From: Octopus vulgaris
Lineage: Eukaryota
Direction of reading: 5' to 3'
NCBI GenBank assembly: GCA_951406725.2
Contig: OX597831.1
Location: forward strand, 66,154,001-66,218,000
Length of the DNA stretch: 64,000 bases
Positions 1 to 64,000 of this stretch are shown piece after piece. The position numbers and the translations under genes were made by a program. The notes below the pieces were generated by a model. The model was not told the DNA's origin and made no database searches. It saw nothing but the letters and a program-made list of their open reading frames with translations. The stretch's first letter is position 1; each line of letters opens with the position of its first letter.

Positions 1-195
1 AATTGAAGAGCATGGTCTTCTGCTAATTCAGGATTGTTATCACCCCGAATTAATAGAAGTTGTCAAGAAGGTTTTTGATTACTAAATAGAGAGAAAAAAA
101 AGACCACGTTAAACGTTTATGAATTCAGTCCAAGGAATTTATTTCAGAAGTCATCAAAACAGACACCTTCTTTGCTTAGTGTCTCTACTCTAAAC

Positions 196-52008: not shown

Positions 52009-52382
52009 GCAAGTTAACAAAACTAGATTAAGATTAGTCTCAAACTGCCACATCTTTCTAGCTTATCCTACATGTGTGAACAAATGCTTTAACTGTGATA
52101 AGTTGGGCCATTTCAGAAAATTCTGTAGGTCAGAACCATTGAATGCTATTAAGTGTGTCTGGTGGGTGTACTAAACAAGAAATAGTTTTTAATGTATGCT
52201 GTGCAGTACTTGTTCTAGATCTTTACATTCTAAGTTCAAGTCCTGCCAAGGACAACTTTACCTTTCACTCTTTTGTGTTAAAGTATCAAACAAATATTGT
52301 GGTTGATTCTAAGGTTTCCCTTACCCAAACTTCAGGTTCTGTGCTTATGTTAGAAAATAATTGTAAAGCAAATTACAATTTA

Positions 52383-52637
52383 TGGAGATGTACTTGCAGA
52401 GCGAGTGACTTGATCTGAGATCGTGTGCTGGAAAGAAAATAATTGTAGCATGGAAGGTGTTTATAAGCCATTTAAGAAACACACAGAACCGTTAGATTCA
52501 CTTCAACATTTAAATTTAATTTGTCAAAATATTTTCATCGCTTTGAGACCGCGACCTGACAAATTAAATTTAAATGTTGAAATGAATCTAACGGTTTTGT
52601 GTGTTTCTTAAATGGCTTATAAACACCTTCCACACTG
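52383..52637. mobile_element. Fold-back Penelope-like mini-element (same family as 62960-63374)
   Basis: Inverted arms ~52451-52527 / 52557-52632. 13-bp TSD AAATTACAATTTA at 52370-52382 and 52638-52650. Confidence 0.8.
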
Positions 52638-53149
52638 AAATTACAATTTACATTGGATAAATTATGATTAGTTAAAATACAGCTGGATTCTGGTACATTT
52701 TGGTTTTACTATTAATCTAAATAATTAAAGAAAAGCATTCAATATTTTGTGATGGTTCAAAACTTAGAGGTAGTTAGTACTACAAAAACTTTGCTTGACT
52801 TTGGAGATTTAAAACAACAGCACTTCAACTTTGTAGTAATTAATTGCAATAATAACTTTTGATTAATTAAGGTGTACATTTAAAGATGTACATAATGTCA
52901 ATGTATTTCTTTTTAGCACCAATGAAAAGGTGACAATTTTGAAGATTTTCATGCTGCTACTGGCATCACCATCTGTCATGGGTGTCAAAGCCGTTGCTAT
53001 TCCCATCGTCATCGTCATATGGTGGTTTGGTAGAAGTTGTAGGGTGTCAATGTACATAGGGGTATTTAGTTTCATTCTTCTATTCTAGAGCTAACTTGTC
53101 TTGCGTCTTTCTAGGGTTGAATAGATACTAAATAAGTACTAGTAATATA

Positions 53150-61066: not shown

Positions 61067-62821
61067 ATATCAGTCAGAAAGTATACGCAGTATGCATTTT
61101 CATGTGAAAGAACTCAATACAATAAAAAATGTGTGTTAGGAAACGGGTATCATTTGAGACATGTATATACATTCCTAGATCTATTGATCTCATCAGTTGA
61201 AAACACATCTCTTCATTATGGGGTCATTTTAAATGATTAAAATGTTTTTCTAACTCACTTAATATATGTTATAGGTGTAGTTGCTAAGAGAGATCATCAG
61301 AGTGAAGCCTCTGTGATGGTGCTTTAGCCATGAATTATTCATGAATAATGTTGGTTATGATGTTCATAGATTCTCTCGATATGCACAGCTTCTGTGATTT
61401 AGTACTGATGAATAAGAGTAGGTTGTCATGTTCTGTTGATGGATGAGGCTTCTATTTATAGAGAACGTACAAGTATATTGAGACTCTTCCTGCCACCAGT
61501 GGCTCTGCAAAAGGTCACCAGAACTGTTTTTCTTTCTTTAGCTATATCATACAAAAATGATATATAGTAGCATCTGGATAAAATGTGCATACAGATGGAA
61601 AAGATAGAGTGGAATGTGATGTCAAAGTGTTTGTAGTTAGAGCTGGTAGAGAGCAGTAATTAAGATGGGAAATAAGAAATGAACAACATTTGTAACTGTA
61701 GGCTCCAATCTTTGAGCATACTTCAAACCAACTTAAAATTACACACCTCCCAGCTACTTGACATTTCTAACTTTCAGCTAACATTTAATATCTGTTGAAT
61801 GATGTTTTTAATGAATCTTTGACAATGTGTATGGGGGGACAATTCTGGACATGCCTCAGCCTTAATCAGGGAAACATAACCTTAACTGTACTTGTCATAG
61901 TTGTGATGAGAGAAATGCTGAGGAGATGCAAAAGATTATGATGAACATGATGACCATCTGCTGCACCCCCTTTTTATTGCGTTTCAAACATTTCTTTGAA
62001 TTCCTGTGTTTTCAACAACAAAAATTACAATGTTGCCAAAGAAGCAGTTTTTCAAAATTTCAGTTTTACCCACCAACATCAAATTATTTGCTTTCAAAAC
62101 TTTTTAAATATATTTTAATTTCAAGTTTAAGAAAATTTGAAGATTATAATTCTGAAATTTTTATTTTTTATTTTTTTTATTTTAATACCTAAAAAATTTC
62201 CCTCAATCCTTGCTTTTGGCATACCTTGCACTCATCCAGTATCAACATTCTGGAATTTTTTAAGCCTGTCCATTTATTTGCTCATGATTAGATTCCTGCT
62301 GATTGGACATTAGGAGGACAGCCTCTCTGTGGTTGCATGACATGTTAGATATAACAGCAAAAGCTTCCTGAAATTACACACCTTTCACAACTTATAAAAT
62401 TTTTAAAAAAAGAATTAGTTACAAAATGTTTGGGGAGTATTTATCAATTTGAGATTGTCTGCATTTTAGTAAGAGTGGAGAATAAATTTGAATTGCATTA
62501 CCATCTGAAAAACATTTCCATATCGGAAGAAAGAAATTGGATGGTGAAGATGCAACAGTGACATTTTAAAGAGTGCTGATGCAGTGTTTTTCATAAGAAA
62601 ATAACATCCTGCATCTTTAAATGAAACTGTGATTGAAAATTGAAAAGGTGATGAATGAATTGTCATGTTTGTTTTAAAAATTTAAGATAATTTGAAACTC
62701 TTAAAACTTGTCCAACACCTTGGCAAAAAAAAGTAGAATTACTTGGATGCAAATTATGCCTTCTCATTAGTAAAGAGATGGTGAGTGACAAAAAAAAATT
62801 ACCTAACATTTGATGGTAGTT

Positions 62822-62867
<46 letters not shown>

Positions 62868-63034
62868 TGGAGGTTGGGAGAAATGAGAATCACTCTGCTG
62901 ATGCATTTCTTATTTCTATTGGGTGTTGATCATTATTCTGAAATTTCAAATAAATTAATGCAGCATGGAAGGTGTGTATAAGCCATTTAAAAAACACACA
63001 AAACCGTTAGATTCACTTCAACATTTAAATTTAA

Positions 63035-63085
63035 TTTGTCAAAATATTTTCGTCGCTTTGAGACCGCGACCTGTTCACTGACAAA
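63035..63085 (-). ncRNA. Minimal type I hammerhead-like motif, G3:C8 variant
   Basis: UUUGUCA-GUGAACA-G-GUCGC ggucucaaa GCGAC-GAAA-AUAU-UU-UGACAAA. Confidence 0.65.
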
Positions 63086-63120
63086 ACTTTGTGCTGCATC
63101 AAAGAGATGCAGCACAAAGT

Positions 63121-63234
63121 TTTGTCAGTAAACAGGTCGCAGTCTCAAAGCGACGAAAATATTTTGACAATGTAGCACAAAGTTTTGTCAGTGAACAGGT
63201 CGGGGTCTCAAAGCGACGAAAATATTTTGACAAA
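63121..63234 (+). ncRNA. Tandem pair of G3:C8 hammerhead-like motifs (63121-63170 with G5>A; 63184-63234 with intact core)
   Basis: Same fold as 63035-63085, repeated head-to-tail on the + strand. Confidence 0.6.
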
Positions 63235-64000
63235 TTAAATTTAAATGCTGAAGTGAATCTAACGGTTTTGTGTGTTTTTTAAATGGCTTATACACACCTT
63301 CCATGCTGCAATTGTTTTCATTCCAGCACACGATCTCAGATCAAGTCACTCGTTATGCAAGTACATCTCCGTAATTCAAATAAATTAATTTTCACAATCA
63401 TAATCTCCATATTTCTGTATATGTTGGATAAAATTGTTCAGTTTATGAAAAAATTTTCTAAGACATTTTAGATGCATGATTTGAGGGAGATTTGGCTGTT
63501 ATTTCTAACATCTCAAATAGTCACAAGGAGGTTTCCTTCTTTCATGTCATCTGATTGTCATCATTCAGCAGCTATCTATGCATGGGAAAGTTTAAAAACT
63601 TCCAAAGGTTTGTGTCAGACGGGTGTAAGTATTTTGAAAGCCAGAAGTGAAAGGGGTATTTTTAAGGATTGAAATTTTGGAAAAAGATCTTTTCAGAATT
63701 ATACTCTCCATCTTTAAAAGAAAAAAATTTGAAAATAAAAGCAAAAAATCTGGAGTTTAATTAGGTAACTGGTTTTTGAAAAGCTGTTTGTTTCTTTTTT
63801 GTTTGGGGGTGGGGCATCATCATGTTGCTGAAAATATAGGAATCCTAAGAAGTTTTTGAAAAACAAAGCAAAATAGGAGTGAAATGCATGTTCAACACAG
63901 CTACATTTGTTGCCATAGGAAAATAGAATTATTTAGAAATTAATTCAGGTATGTCATCTGCGTAATTCTGAAGTTAATACTATTATAGTAACGTATATGT

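What the first reader, a model, noticed from the sequence alone, without database searches (positions are those of the whole stretch)
62945..63389. G3:C8 core-swapped hammerhead present three times in a TSD-flanked hairpin element
Seen: UUUGUCA-GUGAACA-G-GUCGC(9 nt)GCGAC-GAAA-AUAU-UU-UGACAAA occurs once on the - strand and twice in tandem on the + strand, all inside a 15-bp TSD. The usual CUGAUGA is replaced by GUGAACA, so both partners of the known C3-G8 tertiary pair are exchanged, and H17 is U. The AAAUAUUU palindrome and head-to-tail arrangement are what a dimeric (stem III-swapped) hammerhead needs. The first + copy has G5>A and is likely inactive on its own. Ribozyme activity is inferred.
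Basis: partly seen in the sequence, partly recalled or inferred. Interest (0 to 1): 0.8.

Follow-up and report, generated by a model that had tools for sequence, protein, structure and literature searches.

The report
Swapped-core hammerhead in Penelope-like retroelement
This is a broken end-piece of a common jumping gene (a Penelope-like retroelement) whose family carries, in thousands of copies, a small hammerhead RNA motif with two paired core letters swapped (G3:C8); the motif likely still cuts RNA slowly, but cutting is untested and this copy is probably inactive.

Summary
Confirmed with corrections. The 415-bp insert (62960-63374, 15-bp duplication) is a pseudo-LTR fragment of an endonuclease-bearing Penelope-like element (PLE): an inverted arm, a 63-bp duplication, and a tail that is the first 30 codons of the PLE ORF.

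G3:C8 is the family norm: 3,679 of 3,948 genomic motif matches, and no C3:G8 copy. Five related PLE families each have one hammerhead at the same place, with C3:G8 (4) or U3:A8 (1). The 3:8 pair is therefore Watson-Crick in 6 of 6 families, found with a descriptor blind to those positions.

Copy ends pile up about 57 nt upstream of the predicted cut, not at it, so copies derive from uncut RNA.

I found no natural G3:C8 in the papers I could read (three key ones were not held). This scan noted it before in protist PLEs and phages. New variant of a known kind; cleavage untested.

The parts
62945..62959 (.). Left target-site duplication (15 bp; 12 bp if 3 nt of microhomology are given to the element)
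   Evidence: D8, 100% identical to 63375-63389
62960..63100 (-). Inverted pseudo-LTR fragment ending at the short 3' end class (about +83 from the predicted cut)
   Evidence: I1/I2 (96-97%); 3'-end classes
63035..63085 (-). Intact G3:C8 minimal hammerhead motif; G3 63078, C8 63073, predicted cut 63042/63041
63107..63169 (+). First 63-bp unit: 5' end of the element RNA plus hammerhead with G5>A (63130); G3 63128, C8 63133, predicted cut 63164/63165
   Evidence: (D2)
63170..63232 (+). Second 63-bp unit: hammerhead (63184-63234) with intact core and 4-bp stem II (C>G at 63203); G3 63191, C8 63196, predicted cut 63227/63228
   Evidence: (D2, 94%)
63283..63374 (+). First 30 codons of the PLE RT-GIY-YIG ORF; includes the PLE 'tail' (long 3' end class, +147)
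   Evidence: (L171, L172, L183 continue into the ORF)
63375..63389 (.). Right target-site duplication
   Evidence: D8

Best explanation
The insert is a truncated, inverted and partly duplicated pseudo-LTR fragment of an endonuclease-bearing Penelope-like retrotransposon, and its hammerhead motif is the family's own minimal type I hammerhead with a natural G3:C8 core that likely cleaves only slowly, as a dimer or with the element's protein. Shown: family membership, position 5' of the ORF start, G3:C8 as the norm, and Watson-Crick 3:8 pairing across six families. Inferred mechanism: the element RNA starts (or is spliced) about 57 nt upstream of the cut site. The RT-endonuclease nicks AT-rich DNA and starts reverse transcription at one of two internal sites in the first codons of the ORF (about +88 or +147), copying uncut RNA back to its 5' end. 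A second priming or template jump gives the inverted arm and the 63-bp repeat. The ribozyme would act on full-length RNA with two pseudo-LTRs, not in making these short copies. The window copy is probably inactive.
For: Motif lies about 1.15 kb 3' of an RT+GIY-YIG ORF on the same strand in 28 of 30 ORF-selected loci (GIY-YIG Pfam E 2.5e-5). The tail runs into a ~1,000-aa ORF in partial tandems. G3 in 3,863 and C8 in 3,755 of 3,948 matches; no C3:G8 among the 85 non-G3 copies. A descriptor with no credit for 3:8 pairing finds one sense hit and no antisense hit in the 3' region of 6 of 8 relatives scanned (L193 and L194 gave none; only 189 and 315 nt available). 3:8 is G:C, C:G x4, U:A; shuffles reach the score in 0-3 of 200, and 2 of 18 shuffled hits pair at 3:8. 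The closest family (55% aa; sister with SH-aLRT 99, quick tree) has C3:G8, so G3:C8 is likely derived. Subfamily-level changes hit 5 of 9 loop II positions and 0 of 16 core/palindrome/17 positions. 3' ends are bimodal: 44 of 100 at +83..92 and 55 at +139..147, like the two RT start sites of PAc. In PAc a C3G/G8C double mutant partly restores cleavage, the ribozyme is protein-assisted, and uncut RNA is the insertion substrate (PMC11167929).
Against: No cleavage was measured. Copy 5' ends do not pile up at the cut: 2 of 100 alignments start there and neither is a clean 5' end. Core conservation within the family is not significant against ordinary downstream positions (0 of 16 versus 12 of 110). 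G3:G8 copies are over-represented (59 of the first 100 non-C8 hits, hand count), and about 9 of 100 hits share a C11.1>G change, so ribozyme-damaged sources may have spread. The minimum-energy fold pairs G3 with U17, a predicted trap. The modelled dimer of the window tandem (-19.7) is less stable than two monomers (-21.0) or the MFE (-25.9). The six families are related, so 6 of 6 is about three independent states.
Confidence: 0.72

Rival explanations
1. The motif descends from a hammerhead but no longer cleaves at a useful rate; it is kept as an RNA fold for protein binding or promoter function, or carried along passively.
For: No footprint of cut ends. Apparent spread of G3:G8 and C11.1>G copies. 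Naiad PLEs proliferate without canonical hammerheads (PMC8557442). G3:C8 only partly rescues activity.
Against: Two separate transversions were fixed that restore the one tertiary pair, while the rest of the catalytic core stayed constant across subfamilies and families. PAc also shows no reads ending at the cut yet cleaves in vitro.
Confidence: 0.22
2. One reading: this locus is an organised dimeric ribozyme in which the two plus copies swap stem III and cleave.
For: Head-to-tail spacing of 63 nt and a 6-nt palindrome allow a dimer; the core of copy 2 could cut copy 1 at 63164/63165 (model).
Against: Copy 1 has G5>A and copy 2 a shortened stem II. The inverted arm is predicted to pair with both copies in read-through RNA. 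Close tandems are not a family trait. The first unit ends 5 nt past the cut, not at it.
Confidence: 0.1
3. Chance resemblance inside a MITE-like or microRNA-like hairpin.
For: Rfam finds only miRNA-precursor hits, all below gathering score, and no hammerhead.
Against: Rfam also misses the canonical C3:G8 motifs of the relatives (0 hammerhead hits among 103 in 6 loci). The motif sits where PLE hammerheads sit, with one paired hit per family.
Confidence: 0.02

Closest known systems
Minimal type I hammerheads (min-HHR) of metazoan Penelope-like elements (Cervera & de la Pena 2014, PMC4209133)
   Same: In the pseudo-LTR, sense to the ORF; unpaired base between 9 and 10.1; G10.1-C11.1; palindromic stem III needing a dimer; U17; mostly dispersed solo copies and close opposite-strand pairs.
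   Different: Core is G3:C8. None of the 56 motifs in that paper's Fig. S3 starts with G3; the only 3:8 covariation it reports is U3:A8.
PAc, Poseidon PLE of Anolis (Frangieh et al. 2024, PMC11167929)
   Same: Hammerhead at the pLTR-ORF junction; two internal RT start sites in the first codons give the optional tail; AT-rich targets; uncut RNA as template.
   Different: PAc is naturally C3:G8 and G3:C8 is an engineered, partly active mutant. PAc is Penelope/Poseidon clade, whereas this ORF has the C-x3-C-x2-C linker described for Neptune/Nematis.
Natural U3:A8 and U15.1:A16.1 core variants (Perreault et al. 2011, PMC3088659)
   Same: Compensatory exchange of a core base pair in nature.
   Different: G3:C8 is not named in the core-variation section read; the 3:8 change here is a double transversion.
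Non-LTR retrozymes (bioRxiv 10.64898/2026.07.22.740005, part 1 of 5 read)
   Same: Short PLE-derived sequence with type I hammerheads in tandem.
   Different: Here a one-off 63-bp duplication with one damaged core in a dispersed family that has an autonomous ORF; no array.

Membership tests
EN+ Penelope-like element | Single ORF with RT and C-terminal GIY-YIG endonuclease | tested here: met
   Linked family ORF up to 1,025 aa open with YVDD and GIY-YIG. Pfam gave no RT hit for the 352-aa piece; RT rests on motifs and homologue names.
EN+ Penelope-like element | Pseudo-LTR from partial tandem arrangement | tested here: met
   Same sequence lies 3' of the ORF and directly 5' of the ORF start (L172, L178, L188).
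EN+ Penelope-like element | Inverted 5'-truncated copy and a tail at one end only | tested here: met
   Window anatomy; bimodal 3' ends in 99 of 100 segments. The tail is about 60 bp, longer than the 30-40 bp in PMC8557442.
EN+ Penelope-like element | AT-rich or (TA)n targets with duplication | tested here: met
   22 of 43 tail-ended copies abut two-letter sequence; 13 of the other 21 have a flanking direct repeat of 10 bp or more (no shuffle control).
Neptune or Nematis clade | CX2-5CxxC linker before GIY-YIG | tested here: met
   C-x3-C-x2-C in the ORF; criterion from PMC8557442.
Neptune or Nematis clade | Placement in RT phylogeny with named references | not tested
   No named clade references were in the tree.
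PLE minimal hammerhead (min-HHR) | Literal CUGANGA box | tested here: not met
   G3 and C8 in 3,679 of 3,948 matches; hence filed as a variant outside the published descriptor.
PLE minimal hammerhead (min-HHR) | Watson-Crick pair between positions 3 and 8 | tested here: met
   G:C here; C:G or U:A in five relatives. Pairing inferred from covariation, not from structure.
PLE minimal hammerhead (min-HHR) | U4 G5 A6 A9, G12 A13 A14, A15.1-U16.1, H17 | tested here: met
   Family majority at each position 93-99%; window plus copy 1 fails at G5.
PLE minimal hammerhead (min-HHR) | Stems I and II, unpaired base after position 9, G10.1-C11.1, palindromic stem III | tested here: met
   7-bp stem I, 5-bp stem II, G9a, 6-nt palindrome.
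PLE minimal hammerhead (min-HHR) | Self-cleavage after position 17 (as dimer or protein-assisted) | not testable with these tools
   Only assembled contigs were available; no genomic pile-up at the cut.
Non-LTR retrozyme | Tandem array with an intact hammerhead in each unit | tested here: not met
   Two 63-bp units, one with G5>A; no close same-strand pair among 100 listed hits.

The most novel reading that the evidence does not exclude
G3:C8 is a working third natural state of the hammerhead's 3:8 pair, fixed in a recently amplifying animal PLE family as a slowed ribozyme that leaves enough RNA uncut for internal reverse transcription; PLE families scored as hammerhead-less by CUGANGA searches may hide such swapped cores.
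Probability: 0.4. Interest if true: 0.62.

Novelty: new variant of a known kind. Interest (0 to 1): 0.42.

Why it matters
The C3-G8 pair was established by crystal structure and rescue mutants; the natural covariation I found in print is U3:A8. A multi-thousand-copy animal family with G3:C8, next to a sister family with C3:G8 in the same genome, is a natural test of that pair and of whether PLE hammerheads must cleave at all. Searches anchored on CUGANGA (as in PMC8557442 methods) cannot see this motif, so counts of hammerhead-less PLEs may be too high. The end mapping also gives genomic support, in a different PLE lineage, for internal initiation of reverse transcription on uncut RNA.

Tried and rejected
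Rfam scans: no hammerhead family hit for this motif or for canonical relatives, so uninformative. RNA evidence: no RNA holder listed on record. Contigs of 4 runs guessed to be RNA cover the region but show no ends and no GT-AG joint into the motif; no conclusion drawn on expression or splicing. Cap-derived extra G at 5' ends: G precedes the AG in 9 of 22 and 5 of 11 such copies, but several are explained by the inverted arm; transcription start versus splice acceptor is unresolved. G3:G8 as one ancestral subfamily: seen with several loop II types, and the marker I suspected was not specific (0 of the first 100 of 2,321 hits had G8). Dimer favoured by folding energy: not supported. Host gene exons near the insert: a crude scan of 54-64 kb gave nothing convincing. 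The careful tree did not finish; only the quick tree was used. Literature: seven searches gave no natural G3:C8 report. Lunse 2017 (PMC5785218), Przybilski & Hammann 2007 (PMC1986816) and Hammann 2012 (PMC3334697) could not be read, so prior description is not excluded.

Full report
OBSERVATION. A 415-bp insert at 62960-63374 lies between exact 15-bp repeats. It holds an inverted arm (62960-63100), two 63-bp units 94% alike (63107-63232) and a tail. The core pattern occurs three times against 0.10 expected. Only the minus copy is the full motif; plus copy 1 has G5>A and plus copy 2 has a 4-bp stem II. Predicted cuts are at 63042/63041, 63164/63165 and 63227/63228.

WHAT IT BELONGS TO. The own genome (2.8 Gb) gave 2,896 candidates, of which 40 were scored. 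A motif pattern with positions 3 and 8 free gave 3,948 exact matches and 0 for the reversed control. This is a floor: a subfamily with a G-U wobble in stem I is excluded. [quoted passage not shown] In 28 of 30 ORF-selected loci my descriptor found the motif about 1.15 kb downstream on the same strand; the other two had a stem II change. Those ORF loci are a younger subfamily about 88% identical to the window sequence. The window's older loop type is linked to decayed versions of the same ORF (L068, L077, L083) and runs into the ORF start in L178 and L188. In partial tandems the tail continues into the ORF; the ATG is at window 63283. The insert is thus a pseudo-LTR fragment of an endonuclease-bearing Penelope-like element. 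The linker matches Neptune/Nematis; the clade was not placed. The best named homologue is from Octopus vulgaris at 54%, so the host is probably a cephalopod (inference).

IS G3:C8 REAL? Non-G3 matches number 85 and non-C8 193, with 9 in both sets, so 3,679 of 3,948 (93%) are G3:C8. The 9 C3 copies all keep C8; none is C3:G8 (hand counts from the lists). Copy-level changes are mostly neutral decay and do not test function. Across subfamilies (99 segments), alternative bases at 10% or more occur at 5 of 9 loop II positions, 0 of 16 core, palindrome and position-17 sites, and 12 of 110 downstream sites. That is suggestive only. The stronger test is between families. A sister family in the same genome (55% aa identity) and four metagenome relatives (29-46%) each have one hammerhead just 3' of the ORF. 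All have a G after position 9, five of the six families have a perfect stem III palindrome, and the stems differ in sequence. The 3:8 pair is C:G in L199, L190, L191 and L195, U:A in L192, and G:C here. With no credit for 3:8 pairing, each gave one sense hit and no antisense hit; 0-3 of 200 shuffles matched, and 2 of 18 shuffled hits paired at 3:8. Two further relatives (L193, L194) gave no hit in short 3' flanks; three more of the nine metagenome loci lacked the 3' region. The quick tree joins this family with the C3:G8 sister (SH-aLRT 99), making G3:C8 the likely derived state.

HOW THE COPY AROSE. I mapped the first 100 hits of an anchor downstream of the motif, unbiased for the core. 3' ends fall at +83..92 (44), +139..147 (55) and +99 (1) from the cut. 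The window has one arm of each class. 5' ends fall at -52..-66 in 44 of 100; of 53 segments that reach that point, only 7 continue into upstream element sequence. Two alignments start at the cut and neither is a clean end. This fits PAc, where reverse transcription starts at two internal sites in the first codons and uses uncut RNA (PMC11167929, parts 1-2 of 4 read). Whether the -57 point is a transcription start or a splice acceptor is unresolved; the upstream sequence looks like a branch point, pyrimidine tract and AG. Target duplications are usual in the family.

DOES IT CUT? Not shown. For: engineered C3G/G8C partly restores cleavage in a PLE hammerhead and in others (PMC8495972 passage); every other core base is canonical. 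Against: min-HHRs are weak even as dimers (PMC4209133). G3 is predicted to pair with U17, akin to the G3-C17 trap implied in PMC3884650 (passage). G3:G8 copies are over-represented (59 G, 28 T, 13 A among the first 100 of 193; 15 of the G from one cluster on C16) and occur in several subfamilies. At this locus the arms are predicted to form a hairpin of about -255 kcal/mol, and the modelled dimer is not favoured, so the window copy is probably inactive.

COMPARISON AND NOVELTY. It works like, and sits like, a PLE min-HHR; it fails only the literal CUGANGA box. In PMC4209133 (main text parts 1-2 of 4; supplement parts 1-2 of 3) none of 56 aligned motifs has G3. In PMC8557442 (passages; supplement parts 1-2 of 59, including the hammerhead table) all cores begin CUGA. 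PMC3088659 (passages and section 8) names U3:A8 as the natural 3:8 covariation; its figures were not visible. Passages of PMC6765202, PMC11014351 and bioRxiv 10.64898/2026.10.21.760802, and part 1 of 5 of bioRxiv 10.64898/2026.07.22.740005, showed nothing on natural G3:C8. Seven searches found no such report. Lunse 2017, Przybilski & Hammann 2007 and Hammann 2012 were not held, and bioRxiv supplements are closed, so prior description is possible. Earlier notes of this scan report G3:C8 in protist PLEs and phages (unchecked); none matches this DNA. Hammerhead numbering is from established knowledge.

VERDICT. Real feature; new variant of a known kind; interest 0.42. Odds: genuine hammerhead homologue with a compensatory swap about 0.95; family-type motif cleaves at a low rate about 0.65; this locus active about 0.1.

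Noticed in passing
window 52380-52640: A second, shorter inverted-pair insertion of the same PLE family, with both arms truncated inside the hammerhead.
   Followed up: partly
L191:4973 (+): A related PLE's hammerhead has C3:G8 with a swapped U15.1:A16.1 pair and a 6-nt palindrome; this swap is known from PMC3088659 as weakly active.
   Followed up: no
L199:1137 and 5725 (+); L064, L065: A very young sister PLE family (94-100% aa identity among copies, open frames up to 1,312 aa) has a C3:G8 hammerhead with A9>C; L192 has U3:A8 with C9.
   Followed up: partly
G000:C16:1.6-6.8 Mb and L207-L246: G3:G8 copies are over-represented among position-8 variants and cluster on C16; cause unexplained.
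   Followed up: partly
L216, L221: The two arms of some inverted insertions carry different subfamily loop II sequences, suggesting two RNA templates per insertion.
   Followed up: no
L172:1165-1190 (element position about -57 from the cut): Most short copies begin at an AG preceded by a branch-point-like and pyrimidine-rich stretch; transcription start or splice acceptor unresolved.
   Followed up: partly
L032:4982-8288 (+): An unrelated PLE ORF with a DKG motif and cysteine linker (Neptune-like by motif), split by a frameshift.
   Followed up: no
window 62817-62870: (GTA)n microsatellite about 75 bp left of the insert.
   Followed up: no
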